Shown here: positions 55,124 through 62,838 of the stretch, one piece after another
How the letters are laid out: each line of letters begins with the position of its first letter
Numbering within the stretch: the first letter of the stretch is position 1
Source of the DNA: Escherichia coli
GTDB taxonomy: Bacteria; Pseudomonadota; Gammaproteobacteria; Enterobacterales; Enterobacteriaceae
DNA length: 64,000 bases
Assembly (NCBI RefSeq): GCF_045037415.1
Contig: NZ_CP173438.1
Reading direction: 5' to 3' (one strand)
The notes under the pieces: generated by a model
What the model was told of the DNA's origin: nothing
The model's database searches: none
The model's input: the letters and a program-made list of their open reading frames with translations, nothing else
Made by a program: the position numbers and the translations under genes

Positions 55124-55886
55124 TTACTTACCAGAGGCGATACGATCACGGATGTGTTGCGCACGCTCTGTTGATGGTGGGTGAGAATCAAACATGGACT
55201 GGGTGTGACCGCCATCCAGGCTAGCGAGTTTTTCAAAGCTACCAACCAGCCCCTGGGTACTGATGCCACGTTTCTTCAACAGATCAAAGGAGAAATCATC
55301 TGCTTCTGACTCTTTATCACGGGAGTATTTAGCATTGATAGCGCCTTCTGCGATATCACCCAATTGTGAGCGGGAAAGCTGGGAAGCCACACCGCTGGTA
55401 GCTGAAATGGCATCGCGTGCGGCCACGATCGCATAAGAAGCTTTCATTTCAGCCAGCGAGTGACCCAACGCGACGTGGCCCAGTTCATGGCCCAGAACGC
55501 CTTCAATTTCGTTGTCGTTCATCATGTCCATCAGGCCACTGTAGACACGAACACAACCGTTCGCCATCGCCCATGCGTTGACGTCGCTGGTCATATAAAC
55601 CTTATAGTTGACTGGCGTGCCATTAATATTGTTACCCAATGCTTTGGCGATTTTTGCCAGACGTTTCCCGTACTTGCTGGATTTGCTTGCCACTTTATTG
55701 CCGCTGTCCATTTCGACACAGCCCTGATTGGCGATTGCTTTAGCATCAGCATCGCTTAATGTTGCGGCTTTATAAGCATTCAGACCTGAGCTGATAGCCA
55801 AATCGGTATTAATACCGTGCGTATTCTGACATCCTGTCAGTAAGGCTGCAGAGGTCGCAATCGCCAGCAATAATTTAGTATTCTTC
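55124..55886 (-). pseudogene. ycaL: Zn-metalloprotease lipoprotein YcaL: coding body intact but native ATG start and RBS displaced at the prophage junction
   Basis: In-frame codons for KNTKLLLAIATSAALLTGC (lipobox) and HELGH zinc motif are present, but the codon where Met1 is expected reads CAG, an in-frame TAA lies 16 codons upstream, and the first usable start is a TTG at codon 7 with no SD. Confidence 0.55.
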
Positions 55887-55961
<75 letters not shown>

Positions 55962-55962
55962 T

Positions 55963-56040
<78 letters not shown>

Positions 56041-56049
56041 TTGCAGATA

Positions 56050-56439
56050 TTACTCTTTTTTCTCCGTATCTGCATCGGGTTCATCAGCAAATAGCTTGCC
56101 CTGCATCCGATCCAGTTCTTCTTTTCTTACCCGCTTAACCACGCTGTAGACCCACTGAAGCGAAACACCAAATTTGCGGGCCAGTTCGTGGTGGTTGCGT
56201 CCGTTAAACTCCCTGAAGATTTCCCGGTCGCGCTGACTGACCTTCCATACCATGCCCATCGGGAAATAAACGTTTTGCCCGCCCCAGACCTGCATCATTC
56301 GGTTCGCGACGGCCTGACCAATCTGGTCGGCAACTTCGGGCTCAATATCAATAATCTCGCGAACGGTCTCAGAGGTATGCTGTGCCAGTTCCACCAGGAG
56401 TTCCGGCCCCTTACTTCGAAACTGATTCAGGTCGCTCAT
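56050..56439 (-). CDS. mor: Mor/C-family transcriptional activator (Mu middle-operon regulator homologue), 129 aa
   Basis: Same length as Mu Mor; motifs GGQNVYFP and REFNGRNHHELARKFGVSLQWVYSVVKRVR parallel the Mor HTH region as recalled. Confidence 0.75.
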   Translation of the reverse strand: MSDLNQFRSKGPELLVELAQHTSETVREIIDIEPEVADQIGQAVANRMMQVWGGQNVYFPMGMVWKVSQRDREIFREFNGRNHHELARKFGVSLQWVYSVVKRVRKEELDRMQGKLFADEPDADTEKKE

Positions 56440-56860
56440 GTTTGACTCCCGCAGCTCTGCGCTGCCACTTCTTCAGTTTCTCAATAACACTGCTTGCCTG
56501 TTCAGTACTGAGCCAGCGCAGGGCGCTGATGCCCGTTTCCCGCTTGATCCACCTCGCTAATGCATTTTCTGAACGGTCACGAACAATGCCGGCAGCAGCC
56601 ATTTCAAGCCATAGCGCACGAATTTTCCTGGACTGCGGATGGTTATCAAGCGGTAAACCGGAGCTGGCTTTTCTGGCTGGTTTAACGCGAAAGCCTTTCT
56701 TTTTCATGGATTCCAGCACGCAGTTTAGTTGTGTGGTATCCATTCCTTTGGTTGAGGCTTTACCGGTCAGCCCCTGTAACATCTGGCGGTAGGTGTCTTC
56801 ATCCATACCCAGTTCATTACGGGCAATATGGATAAGCTGTATCAGGCGTTTTTTCTGCAT
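56411..56860 (-). CDS. GemA-like protein (Mu gp16 / DUF1018 family), 149 aa
   Basis: N-terminal LIQLIHIARNELGMDEDTYRQMLQGLTGKASTKGM resembles Mu GemA/gp16 as recalled; sits immediately upstream of mor as in Mu. Confidence 0.55.
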   Translation of the reverse strand: MQKKRLIQLIHIARNELGMDEDTYRQMLQGLTGKASTKGMDTTQLNCVLESMKKKGFRVKPARKASSGLPLDNHPQSRKIRALWLEMAAAGIVRDRSENALARWIKRETGISALRWLSTEQASSVIEKLKKWQRRAAGVKHERPESVSK

Positions 56861-56861
56861 A

Positions 56862-57068
56862 TCATCTCCTTTTTTTCAGTCTGTCGGCAACAATGTCGGT
56901 TGCAGCTGGCAGGGTGACTGGCCAGAACAACATGACGGCGGTCATGTACAGGATGTAATGCGCGGTGTCGTAGTGCCTGCCATAGCCCAGGGAACGATGA
57001 AGTCTTGCGCTGCATGATCCTGCGTACATATACCAGAAAAGAAAACAGACAATGGTTTCAGTAGTCAT
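56862..57068 (-). CDS. Small hydrophobic protein, about 68 aa (start at internal Met of track ORF 56862..57224)
   Basis: MTTETIVCFLFWYMYAGSCSA... predicted TM segments; packed between neighbouring genes. Confidence 0.3.
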   Translation of the reverse strand: MTTETIVCFLFWYMYAGSCSARLHRSLGYGRHYDTAHYILYMTAVMLFWPVTLPAATDIVADRLKKRR

Positions 57069-57288
57069 TCTGAATACCTCCCCATTCGATATGAATATTA
57101 CGGGCAGCAATGACAGGGTCGTTATTCCACCATGCACCTGACATGTATTTTTCAACCTGTTCGCGTCCGGCAATAACACCAATTGTGATCCCCGGCCTGA
57201 CGTTCTTAAAAAAGGCGCGGGCAAAAAGGTATCTGGCAGATATTCGGCAGGCTTTTAATTTCCGGCTTTTACCTGATAGCGTAATCAT
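57058..57288 (-). CDS. Hypothetical phage protein, 76 aa
   Basis: Start overlaps the stop of the upstream gene (coupled arrangement); no recognisable motif. Confidence 0.35.
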   Translation of the reverse strand: MITLSGKSRKLKACRISARYLFARAFFKNVRPGITIGVIAGREQVEKYMSGAWWNNDPVIAARNIHIEWGGIQNDY

Positions 57289-57968
57289 CTGGCCTCCAGT
57301 TTCTGTTGTTCCTGCCCACTGACCGGGCGGTGCAGTCTGACGTTCTGCCCTTCACGAAACCCCGCATAGCGCGAGGCGTCGCCATTGCGGCTTCTTCCCG
57401 GTTTACGCGCCCTGGTGGTTTGCGTCTGCGGGTATTTATGTTCCAGCCACTGCTGCATCAGTTCACGCTCATCATCGGTCAGGGCAAAGGACTGTATTTC
57501 ACTGATAACGGCCAGCACCCAGCCTTCGGCAAACTGGTCTCCACGGCTGGTGCGGGTGGCGGTTTTTATTCTTTTGTTCTGTGCACTGATATACTGCTGA
57601 CGCGCCTTTTTCAGCTGACGGGCCAGCACTTCCCAGGTGTATGCAGCCAGTGCCGCACGTTCCCGGTTGCCGTAGAACCCCACAGACGGATGCGTGCCGG
57701 GGTGAATGATGGAGTTAACACCAAATACCTCGCGGATGATGTTCATCAGGCCCAGCATGTAGCGCGGTGGACGGAGACTGCCTGTCGGCCAGTAGTGACT
57801 GATGGTTTCATCAATATCACTCATAGCAATGTCGGAATGTGTGATGCCGTGAACATCCATCAGTTTACGGGCTCGGCGCAGTGCCAGAGCGGCCTCGTGC
57901 GGGTTGCCGGATGCGGCCAGCGCCAGCAACTTTTTCAGTTTCTCAATGTGTTTATTCTGGTCTGTCAT
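57285..57968 (-). CDS. Hypothetical phage protein with DUF2786-like N-terminal motif, about 227 aa
   Basis: KHIEKLKKLLALAASGNPHEAALALRRARKLMDVHGI motif; start placed at the second Met to avoid a 40-nt overlap (track ORF 57285..58004). Confidence 0.45.
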   Translation of the reverse strand: MTDQNKHIEKLKKLLALAASGNPHEAALALRRARKLMDVHGITHSDIAMSDIDETISHYWPTGSLRPPRYMLGLMNIIREVFGVNSIIHPGTHPSVGFYGNRERAALAAYTWEVLARQLKKARQQYISAQNKRIKTATRTSRGDQFAEGWVLAVISEIQSFALTDDERELMQQWLEHKYPQTQTTRARKPGRSRNGDASRYAGFREGQNVRLHRPVSGQEQQKLEAR

Positions 57969-58180
57969 TGTTCTGTATCTCCGGTATTTTTCTGCCGTTT
58001 CCATGCCCGGACAGCGTCGGACAGCTCTTTCAGGCTGTATGCTGCTTTAAGCTTTTCCCATAACCACTGTGTTGTTATGTGCATCAGCAGGGCAGCCAGG
58101 GCTGCCCCCGCACTGAGGCATGTCGCCAGGCCAGTAAGAATCAGTGTCCATGCGGTGATTTCCCTGAGTATGTCAGCCAT
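57965..58180 (-). CDS. Small membrane protein, 71 aa
   Basis: Single predicted TM helix (WTLILTGLATCLSAGAALAALLM) followed by a charged tail. Confidence 0.4.
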   Translation of the reverse strand: MADILREITAWTLILTGLATCLSAGAALAALLMHITTQWLWEKLKAAYSLKELSDAVRAWKRQKNTGDTEQ

Positions 58181-58194
58181 TGAATGCCTCCCGG

Positions 58195-58491
58195 TTACTC
58201 GTTCGTGTAAATCACGCCCAGTCGTGCAGCCAGACGTTCCAGTTTTTTCTGTTTGTGGAAGTCAATCAGCCGGTCCATCCCCTGAAGGCGCAGTTGCTCT
58301 GTCATGATTTCCACGTCTGCCAGCTCTGCCGCGAGGTCACTTTCGCTGCCCTGTCCGTTCAGGTTGCGGGCGGCACTGGCCGCCAGTTCAGCGGCCTCTT
58401 CTGCCAGTTTCAGGGCCTGTGCGTCCGGCCCGAAACGCTGCAGGGCCAGACGGTAGAGGGCGGTGCGGGTGAGTTCGGTGTTTCGTGTCAT
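58195..58491 (-). CDS. MazG-like nucleotide pyrophosphohydrolase-domain protein, 98 aa
   Basis: EEAAELAA...AAELADVEIM pattern typical of the small all-alpha MazG/HisE fold. Confidence 0.5.
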   Translation of the reverse strand: MTRNTELTRTALYRLALQRFGPDAQALKLAEEAAELAASAARNLNGQGSESDLAAELADVEIMTEQLRLQGMDRLIDFHKQKKLERLAARLGVIYTNE

Positions 58492-58500
58492 GCCGCGCCC

Positions 58501-58773
58501 TCAGTGCTTCCGGCTGACGGTGATGTGCAGGCCGCCTTCTGCAGTGGTTTCCATCCGGTACGGCACCTCATGCTCTGCCGTGTGGGTGAGTGTGTTCATC
58601 AGTACCTGCAGGGCAGCCTCCTTTCCGTTGGTCGCCACAATGGCCTGTGTGGCCATGCTGATTAGCGCCGTCAGGACGTGCTTCACATCGGTGAGGTCGC
58701 GGCATTCACACTCGTTGACATAGTGTTCAACAAGGGTTCGGGTGCGCTGTCGTGCTTCCTGTGGGGTAATCAT
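58501..58773 (-). CDS. Hypothetical phage protein, 90 aa
   Basis: ORF in operon context, coupled to the downstream gene; no motif recognised. Confidence 0.4.
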   Translation of the reverse strand: MITPQEARQRTRTLVEHYVNECECRDLTDVKHVLTALISMATQAIVATNGKEAALQVLMNTLTHTAEHEVPYRMETTAEGGLHITVSRKH

Positions 58774-58964
58774 TGCGAGTCCTCCCTGTCAGGGCGGGAG
58801 AATTCCATGACGGGCACGTCTGCCGAAAAATGCTGGCTGCAGTACGGGCAGACCAGGGTGACGCGTACCGCAGGGATGTGGTATTTACCGGACATCACGG
58901 CGATGGCGCTGTGAAAACGCAGGGCTGTTATATCCCTCTCGCACTGAATACATTTAAATATCAT
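58770..58964 (-). CDS. Small zinc-ribbon protein, 64 aa
   Basis: CxxC (CIQC) ... CxxC (CPYC) pairs. Confidence 0.45.
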   Translation of the reverse strand: MIFKCIQCERDITALRFHSAIAVMSGKYHIPAVRVTLVCPYCSQHFSADVPVMEFSRPDREDSQ

Positions 58965-59061
58965 GATTTAATTCTCCTCTGTTTCCGGCGTGCAGAAGCC
59001 CGCGGCGCTGACGTCGGAATAAAAAAGAAAATGTTTTTATTAAATAATTAACGTGGTGTGT

Positions 59062-59592
59062 TTACTGCACATCCTGCTCAAAAGGAATTATTGAAAAATC
59101 CTCAATGTCGCTTTTAATGGAAATACCGGGAATATTTTTCACGGCCTCTTTTTCATTCAGGATAGCGTCTTTATTTATTTCCTCTTTTACACGAATAAAG
59201 CGCTCAAGCCCCAGACGTCTCAGTAATTCAATAACATTATCCGCCCCACGGATACTGACTGATGGCGGACGGTTTCGCCACTGCACCTCGCCGGTGGTGA
59301 GGTTAGCGAACTTCACCTTCCCGTTGCCGGTCAGTTCATCACGGTGTGCCTCACACCATGTCTGAATACCGGACTGCAGTTCGGCCATGCGTTTTTTCAG
59401 GCTCTCGGTGAGCGGGGCATAACGTGCGGTGATATCGCCAATGGCGTCATTCATTTCTGTTTCAGCCCTGACCAGTTCACGTTGTGCGTCACCGAGTAGT
59501 CTGATTCCCTCAATGACCTCTTCACGTGTCCCCGGCACCCAGAGTGCTGCTGCGGCCTTGATACGTTTTGCACCTTTTGTACTTTTTGCCAT
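59062..59592 (-). CDS. gam: Gam-like host-nuclease inhibitor / DNA-end binding protein (Mu Gam family), 176 aa
   Basis: MAKSTKGAKRIKAAAALWVP...TEMNDAIGDIT...WCEAHRDELT...VSIRGADNVIELLRRLGLERFIRVKEEINKDAIL...FSIIPFEQD closely parallels Mu Gam as recalled. Confidence 0.85.
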   Translation of the reverse strand: MAKSTKGAKRIKAAAALWVPGTREEVIEGIRLLGDAQRELVRAETEMNDAIGDITARYAPLTESLKKRMAELQSGIQTWCEAHRDELTGNGKVKFANLTTGEVQWRNRPPSVSIRGADNVIELLRRLGLERFIRVKEEINKDAILNEKEAVKNIPGISIKSDIEDFSIIPFEQDVQ

Positions 59593-59619
59593 TTTTTATG
59601 ATTTCTCCAGTTGTGCTGA

Positions 59620-59889
59620 TTACCACAAAGATTCCGGCCACACGACGCGACAGCCGTGCAGTTCGAAAACGCCCTGACGGAAATATCCCCTGTGGTCATG
59701 TCCGGTATACAGATAACAGGCCTTTCCCTGCTCAAGCATGCGCATGCAATGCGCACTCCGGGAAACGCGGATGACAGGTTTGTTACCCCTGATGGTGATG
59801 CTTTGTACATCCGTGTTCGTCGCCTTAAGCGCCATAATGGCTGACTGCACTTTGCTGATTTGCTGGTTGATACCTGTGGTGGATTTCAT
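59620..59889 (-). CDS. Hypothetical phage protein, 89 aa
   Basis: ORF between the MuB-like gene and gam, where Mu carries kil; no motif recognised. Confidence 0.4.
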   Translation of the reverse strand: MKSTTGINQQISKVQSAIMALKATNTDVQSITIRGNKPVIRVSRSAHCMRMLEQGKACYLYTGHDHRGYFRQGVFELHGCRVVWPESLW

Positions 59890-59891
59890 TA

Positions 59892-61097
59892 TTAAACCCC
59901 TTTGACAACGTCAGCGTTGACCTGTGGAACCCCGATTTCAGCGGCCAGATTCATGGCGGCTATTACCAGGTTACTGACGGCCAGCGGATACAGCAGGCTG
60001 ACCATATTTTTACGGTGACTTCCCGGATTGCTCAGGCGGGCACGTATGGCATCCACTGCACCGGCGTCCATAATGTCCGTCAGCTGTTTACCGGCCCGTT
60101 GCAGTTTGAACGTCAGAAATTCTTCAAGGTTATTGTCCAGAGGCAGAAGTTCGACCACCTCACAGCGCTGAACGACTTCACGGACTTCCATATTGCGTTC
60201 AGACAGTTTTGTCGCCAGTTCCGGCTGGCCAATCAGCACGATGGACAGCAGTTTTTTGAAACCGGACTCCAGCTCAAAAAAGCGTTTGAGGTGTTTCAGT
60301 GTCGGAATGGGCAGACTGTGGGCCTCCTCAATCACCAGAACGTGGCTGAACCCCGCCTGGCTGCTGTCTTTCAGGACGCGATGCAACTGGCGAAAACGGG
60401 CGTCCTGACTGCGTCTGATGCTTTCCAGTGGTGCGATGGTACTGATAATGGCTTCGGCAATAGCTGCTGCCTTCAGGGTTTTCCCTTTCACATCGTTGTC
60501 TTCCATAGCGATGATGTATGGCTCGATAACAATTACCGGCGCATTCTCGCGGTTGATACGTTCAGTCAGGTCGCGGCGCAGCGTGGATTTACCCGCACCG
60601 GACTCACCGATGACGGCCATAAACCCACCATGACGGGCTGTCTGGTACAGCGCCTCACGCACGTAGCGAATGTCCGGGGTGGTGAACACATCATCAGAAC
60701 CCTGCATGGCTTCGTCGGCGAACGGGTCACGGAAAAGACCAAACGCTTTTTTGGTTGCTGGAAATAACACCTGTTTTTTGAGTAACATATTCTCTTCCTC
60801 ACTGAGGCTCGTTTTATCTGTGGTACCCGCTGTACGGGGCGTGGCCGCGCCCTGTACAGCATCAAAACTCTTCGTTGTATCAATCCCCTGACTTTCCAGC
60901 CAGGACGCAAGACGCCGGCGCACTTCTCCGGGGCTGGTGCGGGGCCACGCGTTATGATTCACAATCTGGGCCAGCGTGGCCTCAGAAACATCGACAGCTC
61001 TCGCCACCACCGCCTGTGGAATACGGGCCTCTTTCAGTTGCTGCTTCAGTACCAGCATGTTTCCCTCCTCAGTTGCCGTTAACAATGCTGATAACAC
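59892..61097 (-). CDS. MuB-like transposition ATPase (N-terminal HTH plus AAA+), up to 401 aa
   Basis: Walker A GESGAGKST, N-terminal Xre-like HTH (AVVARAVDVSEATLAQIV); immediately downstream of the transposase; start uncertain (the Met at 61058 would remove the overlap with the transposase gene). Confidence 0.8.
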   Translation of the reverse strand: MLSALLTATEEGNMLVLKQQLKEARIPQAVVARAVDVSEATLAQIVNHNAWPRTSPGEVRRRLASWLESQGIDTTKSFDAVQGAATPRTAGTTDKTSLSEEENMLLKKQVLFPATKKAFGLFRDPFADEAMQGSDDVFTTPDIRYVREALYQTARHGGFMAVIGESGAGKSTLRRDLTERINRENAPVIVIEPYIIAMEDNDVKGKTLKAAAIAEAIISTIAPLESIRRSQDARFRQLHRVLKDSSQAGFSHVLVIEEAHSLPIPTLKHLKRFFELESGFKKLLSIVLIGQPELATKLSERNMEVREVVQRCEVVELLPLDNNLEEFLTFKLQRAGKQLTDIMDAGAVDAIRARLSNPGSHRKNMVSLLYPLAVSNLVIAAMNLAAEIGVPQVNADVVKGV

Positions 61098-62838
61098 TGC
61101 TGCGGGCCGGTGTGGTCAGCGTGGCCATGACTTCATCCAGTGCGGCTTCCGGTACGCCGTCCGGGTACTGTGCCGTTAACTGGCGGTAATGTTCCGGCGT
61201 CCAGGTAAGGCCGTCGGCGCTGAACTTATCGCGCAGGGCTTTCGCGGCCTCCACATGAGTCATGGGACGTTGTTCAGTGCGCGGCCCGCGTACGTCAGAG
61301 GCCTGACCACGCTTCGGCATATAGGCCGGAAGTGTGGTGTCGTCGATATGTTTATACGGGTCAAGCCGCCCGCCGAACGGCAGCGCCTTCGCCTTGCGTG
61401 CGGCGGCTGCATCTGCGGCGTTGTCTGTACCGGTAACCAGCGCTTCGGTTTCTTTTGCCGCCATCTGTGCCGGGGTTTCCGGCAGGGCTTTGTAACTTTC
61501 GCCAAATACCGCCGCGCCTTCAGCAAAGCCAAACTCGTTCTTTCTGACCTCTTCGACCAGGAAGAACGTCTCGTGGCCGTCCTCACCGGTCAGAACCACC
61601 TGTGCCACATCGCTGCGCCATGGGTTACGGGTAATCATCAGTTTTTCACCAACCAGTACGCCCGGTACCGTTGATACGTCAAATTCAGTGCCCCGGAACG
61701 AGACACGAAGTTTTGGCGTGACTTTGCGGAGTTCTGGTGCCGCCACAGCCAGTTCACGACATACCTCAACGGAAGGCGCTTTTTTCAGCTGCTCAGCAGT
61801 AATCTTCAGCCAGATATCCGTGCGGGTTTTACCGTGGCGGCTGTGAACAGCCGTGGCGTTAAAGTGGCTGCGCCATTTCGCGGCCAGCGCGTTGAGTTCT
61901 TCCAGACTGTGAACCGGCCGGAACTTCAGACCCGGCTCCAGCTTGCGTTCGATAATGTCACGCGCCTTTTCCACCTGTCCGGTGGCGCGGGCGTTATGCG
62001 GCTTGTGCGCTATCAGGTCGATGCCCAGTGAGCGGCACATGTTTTTCGTCATACCCGCGGTGTTTGCCGAGCCGGGGTCGAGATAGAGTATTTTCGGCAC
62101 GCCGTGCAGCACGTCTGCGCCGCCACGCTCCTGCATGGCGTTGATAAGCACAGAACACAGGTTCTCACCTGATTCCGCGCCCGTCACATACTCAACGTAA
62201 ATCCAGCCGCTGGCATGGTCGGTAATCTCGTAACTCCACACGCGGTCACTGGCGATACGGGCAAGGTTAGCGGGCTTGTTCTTGTAGAACTTCGCGCTGT
62301 CCATCACCTGCAGCCCTTTATGTCCATTGCTCAGGTAGTAAAGCGTGCAGAGTGAGGCGTCAATCTGCCAGACATGATTGGGATGCAGACTGGCCACTTC
62401 GGTATGTGGTGCAGGGGCATCCAGTTGTTCCGGGTGCAGGCCATAGTTACGCAGAGCACGGCTGATGGCATCTTCAGACAACGGGAAAAACTCACTGGTG
62501 GTTTCATCTGTTCTGCCTGCGGTGATAAAGCCGTTAGCCCGCAGGGTTTCCACTGCATCTGCGATGGAATAGAGACGCTTACCGTTCTTGCGGGTGGCCT
62601 CACGCAGTGTGGCAGATATCAGCGCGGCTTCGTCGCGGGTCAGGGCGCTGCGCCCGGCATCGGCGCGTTTTTTGCGTTTATCAGTCACAGATACCTCCTT
62701 CAGCCTGCGCAGCAGAGTGGCGCGGGACATGCCAAGTTCAGCACAGGCAGCGTCGTATATTGCACCGCGTTTACCATGCCCCGCGTCACGTGCCGCGCGG
62801 GCTGTTTCAACCAGTTTTTCAGTCAGTGCCGGGGTCAT
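61069..62838 (-). CDS. DDE (rve/Mu-type) transposase, 589 aa
   Basis: N-terminal HTH; catalytic core with VWQIDAS ... YLDPGSANT ... ATGQVE arrangement. Confidence 0.85.
   Translation of the reverse strand: MTPALTEKLVETARAARDAGHGKRGAIYDAACAELGMSRATLLRRLKEVSVTDKRKKRADAGRSALTRDEAALISATLREATRKNGKRLYSIADAVETLRANGFITAGRTDETTSEFFPLSEDAISRALRNYGLHPEQLDAPAPHTEVASLHPNHVWQIDASLCTLYYLSNGHKGLQVMDSAKFYKNKPANLARIASDRVWSYEITDHASGWIYVEYVTGAESGENLCSVLINAMQERGGADVLHGVPKILYLDPGSANTAGMTKNMCRSLGIDLIAHKPHNARATGQVEKARDIIERKLEPGLKFRPVHSLEELNALAAKWRSHFNATAVHSRHGKTRTDIWLKITAEQLKKAPSVEVCRELAVAAPELRKVTPKLRVSFRGTEFDVSTVPGVLVGEKLMITRNPWRSDVAQVVLTGEDGHETFFLVEEVRKNEFGFAEGAAVFGESYKALPETPAQMAAKETEALVTGTDNAADAAAARKAKALPFGGRLDPYKHIDDTTLPAYMPKRGQASDVRGPRTEQRPMTHVEAAKALRDKFSADGLTWTPEHYRQLTAQYPDGVPEAALDEVMATLTTPARSSVISIVNGN

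What the first reader, a model, noticed from the sequence alone, without database searches (positions are those of the whole stretch)
56862..57288. Two overlapping small ORFs with ambiguous gene boundaries
The track gives 56862..57224 (120 aa) and 57058..57288 (76 aa) overlapping on the same strand in different frames. The tidiest model is a 76-aa gene followed by a roughly 68-aa hydrophobic protein starting at an internal Met, but a programmed overlap cannot be excluded.
Basis: seen in the sequence. Interest (0 to 1): 0.35.

Follow-up and report, generated by a model that had tools for sequence, protein, structure and literature searches.

The report
Two ordinary coupled small phage genes
The apparent long overlap comes from listing the longest possible reading frame: the locus holds two ordinary small prophage genes (76 and 68 amino acids) that overlap by only 11 bases, as public annotations already show.

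Summary
Both ORFs exist on the minus strand exactly as described: 56862..57224 (120 aa, TTG start) and 57058..57288 (76 aa). They overlap by 167 nt, and the long ORF lies in the +1 frame of the short one. The 120-aa ORF is not a gene. Only its last 68 codons (ATG at 57068) are coding. A 68-position PHROG profile matches residues 53-120 end to end, and every homologue starts at that Met. The ATG has the only strong Shine-Dalgarno site (GGGGAGG, 8-nt spacer, -12.8 kcal/mol); the TTG has none. RefSeq/PGAP and GenBank annotate 68 + 76 aa. In relatives of the 76-aa gene the +1 frame carries stop codons in 11 of 24 distinct sequences. pN/pS is 0.17 in the 76-aa frame and 2.2 in the +1 frame. An open +1 run this long arises by chance in 5-8% of synonymous resamplings. 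The real arrangement is an 11-nt stop/start overlap (ATGACTACTGA), typical of the tightly packed early operon of this BcepMu-like transposable prophage (…DUF2786, 76 aa, 68 aa, gemA, mor). The 68-aa product is a predicted two-helix membrane hairpin. The 76-aa product is a small basic helical protein. Neither has a known function. Low interest.

The parts
57058..57288 (-). 76-aa gene (phrog_3681; RefSeq WP_000631813.1). It encodes a small basic helical protein of unknown function. The start ATG is at 57288 and forms an ATGA overlap with the stop of the upstream DUF2786/DUF7168 gene.
   Evidence: Full-length PHROG match, 1-76 of 76, E=6.5e-55. Annotated in PGAP and GenBank. Homologues of 72-76 aa in Escherichia, Salmonella, Citrobacter, Proteus, Serratia and Klebsiella. 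pN/pS 0.17 in this frame. SD GGAGG, -9.3 kcal/mol.
56862..57068 (-). 68-aa gene (phrog_6436; RefSeq WP_000206212.1). It encodes a predicted two-helix membrane hairpin and is the true coding part of the 120-aa ORF.
   Evidence: The PHROG profile (68 positions) matches residues 53-120 of the 120-aa ORF and 1-68 of the 68-aa product, E=2.2e-45. All family members begin at the same Met. Annotated as 207 nt by PGAP and GenBank. The AF2 best model has pLDDT 90 with helices 2-26, 35-47 and 49-67.
57077..57083 (-). Shine-Dalgarno site GGGGAGG for the 68-aa gene, 8 nt upstream of the ATG. It lies inside the conserved Trp-Gly-Gly codons of the 76-aa gene.
   Evidence: Duplex energy with the 16S anti-SD is -12.8 kcal/mol, the strongest of all 12 in-frame start candidates. 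TGGGGNGG is present before the downstream start in Mu-like and P22-like relatives.
57058..57068 (-). The real 11-nt stop/start overlap, ATGACTACTGA. The ATG of the 68-aa gene lies 8 nt upstream of the TGA of the 76-aa gene.
   Evidence: Read from the sequence. The same ATG at offset -8 is found in all Mu-like relatives, including loci with a different downstream gene (L042) or a different upstream gene (L074).
57069..57224 (-). 52-codon upstream extension of the 120-aa ORF. It is the non-coding +1 frame of the 76-aa gene.
   Evidence: No SD before the TTG at 57224 (+0.4 kcal/mol). Stops occur in this frame in 11 of 24 distinct homologous sequences; one is in a 96%-identical E. coli prophage (L023) and comes from a change that is synonymous in the 76-aa frame (GTC to GTG). 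pN/pS is 2.2. 49 of 53 third positions of the 76-aa frame vary, and these are second positions of the +1 frame.
56858..56864 (-). Junction TGAtATG between the 68-aa gene and gemA (gp16), with a 1-nt spacer. The gemA SD AAGGAG lies in the last codons of the 68-aa gene.
   Evidence: Sequence; ORF list; SD -8.7 kcal/mol; GemA Pfam hit E=8e-41.

Best explanation
The locus holds two separate, ordinary protein-coding genes in the leftward early operon of a BcepMu-like transposable prophage. One is a 76-aa gene (57288 to 57058). The other is a 68-aa gene (57068 to 56862) whose ATG lies 8 nt before the stop codon of the 76-aa gene, giving an 11-nt overlap. The 120-aa ORF is simply the 68-aa gene plus 52 codons of the +1 frame of the 76-aa gene that happen to lack a stop. 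Ribosomes start the 68-aa gene at ATG 57068, using the GGGGAGG Shine-Dalgarno site embedded in the conserved Trp-Gly-Gly codons of the upstream gene. Because the upstream stop is only 8 nt past this ATG, the two genes are probably translationally coupled, as are their neighbours (ATGA with the DUF2786 gene, TGAtATG with gemA). That would make all of them co-expressed from the early transcript. What is shown: the gene boundaries, the SD, conservation of one frame only, and the family boundaries. What is inferred: translational coupling; that the 68-aa product is an inner-membrane helical hairpin; and that both proteins are accessory early (host-modulating) factors of unknown activity.
For: The PHROG 6436 profile (68 positions) aligns end to end with residues 53-120 of the 120-aa ORF, and PHROG 3681 (76 positions) with the whole 76-aa ORF. 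PGAP on identical and variant E. coli prophages, and GenBank PQ738613 (100% identical), annotate 207-nt (or 216-nt allele) plus 231-nt genes with the same 11-nt overlap. All 40 listed E. coli genome hits carry two hypothetical proteins there. An exhaustive HMMER search of 1.8 billion representatives finds only small proteins of 64-71 aa aligned from residue 1-3; the longer ones are contig-end or frameshift artefacts. The family alignment has an invariant M1 and no N-terminal extension. SD energies are -12.8 kcal/mol at ATG 57068 and +0.4 at TTG 57224. The +1 frame has stops in 11 of 24 distinct homologues. Variable sites by codon position are 27/14/49 of 53. Mean pN/pS is 0.17 in frame 0 and 2.19 in frame +1 over 54 pairs. 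The chance probability of the open run is 0.05-0.08. The 68-aa homologue keeps the same ATGnnnnnTGA junction behind a different upstream gene in L074. The 76-aa gene sits before unrelated downstream genes in other phages. The genes are therefore independent modules.
Against: There are no expression data for this prophage, so low-level initiation at the weak in-frame GTG/TTG codons (57182-57110; SD -2 to -6 kcal/mol) cannot be formally excluded. Within the closest E. coli relatives (at least 95% identity) the +1 frame is mostly open, but these sequences carry too few substitutions to be informative. Coupling itself is inferred from geometry alone.
Confidence: 0.93

Rival explanations
1. True dual coding: the 120-aa ORF is translated from TTG 57224, or from an in-frame GTG/TTG further down. 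That would give an N-terminally extended isoform of the membrane protein encoded within 167 nt of the 76-aa gene.
For: The frame is open for 62 codons upstream of the ATG, and several near-cognate starts exist. The extension has a hydrophobic stretch (Kyte-Doolittle 1.77).
Against: No SD precedes the TTG (+0.4 kcal/mol). The profile and all homologues stop at the ATG. Stops interrupt the extension in 11 of 24 distinct relatives, including a 96%-identical one, through a change that is synonymous in the other frame. pN/pS is 2.2. The openness is within chance.
Confidence: 0.02
2. Programmed +1 ribosomal frameshift from the 76-aa frame into the 68-aa frame, producing a fusion protein.
For: Database proteins P0002, P0003, P0004, P0008 and P0009 are exactly such fusions. 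The region contains A5, T6 and G4 runs.
Against: Each fusion is a singleton cluster on a contig of about 1-1.5 kb. Four of the five break at a different homopolymer and one carries a deletion of about 37 nt, which is the signature of sequencing or assembly indels. There is no prfB-like CUU-UGA motif or other known +1 shift site at the stop (TAC TGA A; from the sequence, judged against established knowledge of prfB/oaz-type sites). The +1 frame is closed in many relatives. No complete E. coli genome annotation shows a fused or joined CDS here.
Confidence: 0.01
3. The membrane protein starts at the next in-frame ATG (57029), giving 55 aa and leaving a 28-nt intergenic gap instead of an overlap.
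For: An ATG exists at 57029.
Against: No SD is present (-0.9 kcal/mol). Residues 1-13 are conserved across the family (M1, L10, F11 and W12 invariant). They form the first half of the predicted helix 2-26. Relatives of the 71-aa allele lack an ATG at that position.
Confidence: 0.03

Closest known systems
Short stop/start overlaps (ATGA, ATGnnnnnTGA) with translational coupling in phage and bacterial operons
   Same: The start codon lies a few nt upstream of the preceding stop, and the SD is embedded in the end of the upstream gene. The arrangement repeats along the operon: ATGA at 57285-57288 and at 57965-57968, TGAtATG at 56858-56864, and a 29-nt gemA/mor overlap.
   Different: Nothing unusual. 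An 11-nt overlap is longer than the commonest 1- and 4-nt overlaps but well within the normal range. Coupling was not measured here.
PHROG families phrog_6436 (68 aa) and phrog_3681 (76 aa), both of unknown function
   Same: Full-length, end-to-end profile matches.
   Different: None. These families have no assigned function.
Early ('semi-essential') region of Mu and BcepMu-like transposable phages (Gam … GemA, Mor)
   Same: The setting is the same: between gam and gemA/mor, in a run of small accessory genes behind an rve-type transposase and an AAA+ B-like protein. The element ends in a TG…CA terminus (PMC2628397 for the BcepMu-type termini).
   Different: Neither small protein has a detectable homologue in phage Mu itself (tblastn against 50,697 phage records found only PhiKM, Phi06_2974 B and KP12, plus three non-Mu phages for the 76-aa protein).
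Programmed frameshift genes (prfB +1; dnaX, IS3 and phage tail-chaperone G/GT -1)
   Same: Two same-strand ORFs overlap in different frames.
   Different: There is no slippery site, no conservation of the second frame, and no conserved fusion product.

Membership tests
phrog_6436 (small membrane protein upstream of gemA) | Full-length match to the 68-position family profile | tested here: met
   E=2.2e-45, residues 1-68 to profile 1-68. In the 120-aa ORF only residues 53-120 match.
phrog_3681 (76-aa early protein) | Full-length match to the 76-position family profile | tested here: met
   E=6.5e-55, residues 1-76 to profile 1-76. 17 invariant columns across 26 homologues.
Dual-coding (overprinted) gene pair | Second frame stays open across homologues | tested here: not met
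   Stops in the +1 frame in 11 of 24 distinct homologous sequences.
Dual-coding (overprinted) gene pair | Purifying selection in both frames, seen as suppressed synonymous change in the overlap | tested here: not met
   49 of 53 third positions vary. pN/pS is 0.17 in frame 0 and 2.19 in frame +1.
Programmed ribosomal frameshift | Conserved slippery or shift-prone site, and a fusion product conserved among relatives | tested here: not met
   No known shift motif in the sequence. The fusions in databases are singletons with breakpoints at different homopolymers.
Translationally coupled overlapping stop/start | Downstream start within a few nt of the upstream stop, with the SD inside the upstream gene | tested here: met
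   ATG 8 nt upstream of TGA. GGGGAGG lies 8 nt upstream of the ATG. The junction is conserved in relatives.
Translationally coupled overlapping stop/start | Downstream translation depends on upstream translation | not testable with these tools
   Needs reporter fusions with a premature stop in the upstream gene.
BcepMu-like (Mu-like) transposable prophage | rve-type transposase, AAA+ B-like protein, Gam, GemA and Mor; TG…CA termini | tested here: met
   Pfam hits: rve, AAA_22, Phage_Mu_Gam, GemA, Mor. An identical terminus …AATCA at 55887 joins three different host flanks. Only one end lies in the window.

The most novel reading that the evidence does not exclude
The most novel reading not strictly excluded has two parts. 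First, the invariant Trp-Gly-Gly motif of the 76-aa protein is kept partly because its codons (TGGGGAGG) serve as a portable ribosome-binding site for whatever gene is placed downstream, so the 76-aa gene would act as a mobile 'expression adaptor' module in Mu-like and P22-like phages. Second, the 76-aa and 68-aa proteins could be uncharacterised host-takeover or exclusion factors. A functional N-terminally extended isoform of the membrane protein is the other reading that remains possible, but it is very unlikely.
Probability: 0.05. Interest if true: 0.3.

Novelty: already known. Interest (0 to 1): 0.07.

Why it matters
It matters little. The result removes a spurious 120-aa gene call and fixes the boundaries of two small prophage genes, in agreement with existing RefSeq, GenBank and PHROG models. 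The only residual value is that both proteins belong to narrow, uncharacterised families. The 68-aa family is a membrane hairpin always placed just upstream of gemA, with 8 matches among 1.8 billion representative proteins. Both sit in the early host-modulation region of a prophage detected in 628 of 5,426 complete E. coli genomes, several of whose strain names I recall as ST131. They are candidates for functional study, but nothing here suggests an unusual mechanism.

Tried and rejected
Pfam, NCBIfam and PADLOC gave no hit for either small protein; the only match was a chance-level JetC hit at E=0.026. A profile search of PDB sequences with the 76-aa alignment found only chance matches at E of 4 or more. 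AlphaFold2 of the 76-aa protein gave a low-confidence three-helix model (pLDDT 57.5), and Foldseek of it against BFVD found nothing below E=5. I therefore draw no conclusion about its fold. The 68-aa model is a helical hairpin (best model pLDDT 90, the other four 59-68). Foldseek against PDB gave only non-significant matches to transmembrane helices of PSI and Na+-NQR (E of 2 or more). Rfam at E up to 1 found no RNA family in 55800-59700. The promoter/terminator scan found nothing inside 56862-57288 and no excess over shuffles. PHROG scans of the plus-strand ORFs that overlap the region (57110..57322, 56793..57017, 57306..58307 and others) found nothing. Literature searches returned no paper on these two proteins. 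I considered a programmed +1 frameshift, prompted by the fusion proteins, and rejected it as homopolymer sequencing error. I first suspected the prophage was a deletion remnant ending after mor, and rejected that: the same terminus joins three different host flanks, which fits the BcepMu layout.

Full report
**Observation.** They share 167 nt (57058-57224). The 120-aa ORF is in the +1 frame of the 76-aa ORF. The internal Met is the ATG at 57068-57066 and yields a product of exactly 68 aa, MTTETIVCFLFWYMYAGSCSARLHRSLGYGRHYDTAHYILYMTAVMLFWPVTLPAATDIVADRLKKRR.

**Context.** The locus lies in a tightly packed leftward operon with this gene order:
- rve-type transposase, 61069..62838
- AAA+ B-like protein, 59892..61097
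- Gam, 59062..59592
- several small ORFs, including a MazG-like one (58195..58491)
- 71-aa membrane ORF, 57965..58180
- DUF2786/DUF7168 protein, 57285..57968
- the 76-aa ORF
- the 68-aa ORF
- GemA, 56411..56860
- Mor, 56050..56439

It is therefore the early arm of a Mu-like prophage. GenBank files the 100%-identical record PQ738613 (Escherichia phage PhiKM) under Bcepmuvirus. Downstream of mor are ycaL (M48 peptidase), cmk and rpsA, which are host genes.

**Which gene model is right?**
1. Profile boundaries. phrog_6436 is a 68-position profile. It aligns 1-68 to residues 53-120 of the 120-aa ORF, and 1-68 to the 68-aa product (E=2.2e-45). phrog_3681 (76 positions) aligns end to end with the 76-aa ORF (E=6.5e-55).
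2. Public annotation. GenBank PQ738613 and RefSeq/PGAP annotate a 207-nt gene (WP_000206212.1) and a 231-nt gene (WP_000631813.1) with an 11-nt overlap. Variant E. coli prophages carry a 71-aa allele (WP_000123379.1) that starts at the same ATG. Klebsiella phage KP12 has 70-aa and 76-aa genes. The locus was detected in 628 of 5,426 complete E. coli genomes, and every listed hit has two hypothetical proteins there.
3. Homologue N-termini. An exhaustive HMMER scan of 1.84 billion representative proteins found only 8 matches. The genuine family members are 64-71 aa and align from residue 1-3. The family alignment has an invariant M1 and no extension.
4. Start signals. Among the 12 in-frame ATG/GTG/TTG codons, the ATG at 57068 has by far the best anti-SD pairing (GGGGAGG at 57077-57083, 8-nt spacer, -12.8 kcal/mol). 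The TTG at 57224 has none (+0.4).
5. Conservation by frame. I collected 55 viral-contig loci encoding relatives of the 76-aa protein, which gave 24 distinct gene sequences.
   - The +1 frame has a stop downstream of the TTG position in 11 of the 24. One of these, L023, is 96% identical; there a GTC to GTG change is silent in the 76-aa frame and creates TGA in the +1 frame.
   - Over the 53-codon ungapped core, variable sites by codon position are 27/14/49. Third positions of the 76-aa frame are nearly saturated, and these are second positions of the +1 frame.
   - Nei-Gojobori pN/pS averages 0.17 in the 76-aa frame and 2.19 in the +1 frame over 54 pairs.
6. Chance. Synonymous-codon resampling of the 76-aa gene gives an open +1 run of at least 62 codons in 8.2% of trials, and a start-codon extension of at least 52 codons in 4.9%. 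The window's +1-frame stop density gives P=0.07. With dozens of gene junctions per window, such an extension is expected now and then.

**Independence of the two genes.**
- The 76-aa gene also occurs in P22-like and other phages, upstream of unrelated genes (DUF4222, or ORFs of 76, 161, 209 and 299 aa), usually with an ATGA junction.
- In L074 an 84%-identical homologue of the 68-aa gene follows a different upstream gene. It keeps the ATGnnnnnTGA 11-nt overlap and sits directly upstream of gemA.
- L019 combines the other allele of the 76-aa C-terminus with the 68-aa allele, so recombination has occurred within a few bases of the junction.

These are mosaic modules with a boundary at the junction.

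**Frameshift hypothesis.** The protein search with the 120-aa ORF returned five 'fusion' proteins that join the 76-aa frame to the +1 frame (P0002, P0003, P0004, P0008, P0009). Each is a singleton cluster on a contig of 1.0-1.5 kb. Four of the five break at a different homopolymer (A5, T6, G4) and one carries a roughly 37-nt deletion. That is the pattern of sequencing or assembly indels, not of a programmed event. There is no known shift-prone motif at the stop (TAC TGA A). I reject this hypothesis.

**Mechanism.** The 68-aa gene is translated from ATG 57068 using the SD that is embedded in the Trp-Gly-Gly codons of the 76-aa gene. The upstream stop (TGA, 57058-57060) lies 8 nt past this ATG, so terminating ribosomes are in position to reinitiate. 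Neighbouring junctions are of the same kind: ATGA at 57285-57288 and at 57965-57968, TGAtATG at 56858-56864, and a 29-nt gemA/mor overlap. No promoter-like or terminator-like site lies inside the locus. Coupled co-expression from the early transcript is the most likely mode of expression. This is inferred, not shown.

**The proteins.**
- The 68-aa product is predicted as a helical hairpin with helices 2-26, 35-47 and 49-67, a kink at the invariant W49-P50, and a basic loop. The best model has pLDDT 90, but the other four have 59-68. Hydropathy maxima are about 1.8.
- The family has invariant L10, F11, W12, G17, A21, L23, H24, Y33, W49, P50, L53, P54 and D58. In every genomic context I examined (the window and loci L001, L002, L004-L007, L074) the gene lies directly upstream of gemA.
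- The 76-aa product is basic at its N-terminus and has a highly conserved core, YLFARAFFKNVRPGI.IGVIAGREQV..YMSGAWWNNDP...A.NIH..WGGI. The structure prediction was poor (pLDDT 57.5).
- No Pfam, NCBIfam, PADLOC, PDB or Foldseek match gives a function for either protein.
- Neither protein has a homologue in phage Mu itself.

By position they are accessory early genes, and their activity is unknown.

**Comparison with what is known, and verdict.** This is a standard short stop/start overlap in a phage operon, and it is already annotated correctly in RefSeq, GenBank and PHROGs. The 167-nt 'overlap' comes from listing maximal ORFs. Novelty: already known. Interest: low (0.07).

Noticed in passing
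window 55887 (element end); 55850-56055: The window and two other E. coli prophage copies (L005, L007) are identical downstream of mor up to …CTCAAGTCTAATCA (minus strand; last base 55887). Beyond that they diverge into three different host flanks. In the window the flank begins within the ycaL start codon. The mor gene therefore lies 163 bp from a genuine TG…CA transposon terminus, as in BcepMu-type phages whose early arm points to the left end. The prophage is not a deletion remnant, and the rest of it lies beyond 64000. Strain SK1144 (L004) has a different sequence after mor.
   Followed up: partly
window 57077-57085; loci L042-L060: The invariant Trp-Gly-Gly near the C-terminus of the 76-aa protein is encoded by TGGGGNGG. 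This doubles as the Shine-Dalgarno site of whatever gene follows it, in Mu-like and in P22-like or other contexts (junctions ATGnnnnnTGA or ATGA). The third positions vary (GGA, GGT, GGC, GGG), so SD strength differs between copies.
   Followed up: partly
proteins P0002, P0003, P0004, P0008, P0009, P0056: Public metagenome and Logan assemblies contain singleton 'fusion' proteins made by indels at A5, T6 and G4 homopolymers in this locus. One further protein fuses the membrane protein to the GemA N-terminus. These look like assembly or sequencing errors that inflate protein databases.
   Followed up: partly
window 57285-58004 (-) and 57965-58180 (-): The same kind of start ambiguity occurs one gene upstream. 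The maximal ORF of the DUF2786/DUF7168 gene is 239 aa and overlaps the 71-aa membrane ORF by 40 nt. PGAP starts it at 57968 (227 aa), which gives an ATGA junction.
   Followed up: partly
window 57306-58307 (+); L074 74-1117 (-): A 333-aa ORF runs antisense across three early genes, and it is also open (347 aa) in the related locus L074. It has no PHROG match and is not annotated by PGAP. It is probably an antisense frame poor in stop codons, but selection on it was not tested.
   Followed up: partly
window 56862-57068 versus L005/L006/L007 1054-1269: The membrane-protein gene exists as two alleles in E. coli prophages, of 68 aa and 71 aa, about 40% identical in protein. The flanks are otherwise about 93% identical in DNA. 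This is a sharp mosaic replacement bounded by the 76-aa gene junction and gemA. The 71-aa allele overlaps gemA by 8 nt instead of leaving a 1-nt spacer.
   Followed up: partly
window 58195-58491 (-): A 98-aa early ORF matches only the C-terminal half (positions 113-211 of 218) of a PHROG annotated as nucleoside triphosphate pyrophosphohydrolase (MazG-like).
   Followed up: no
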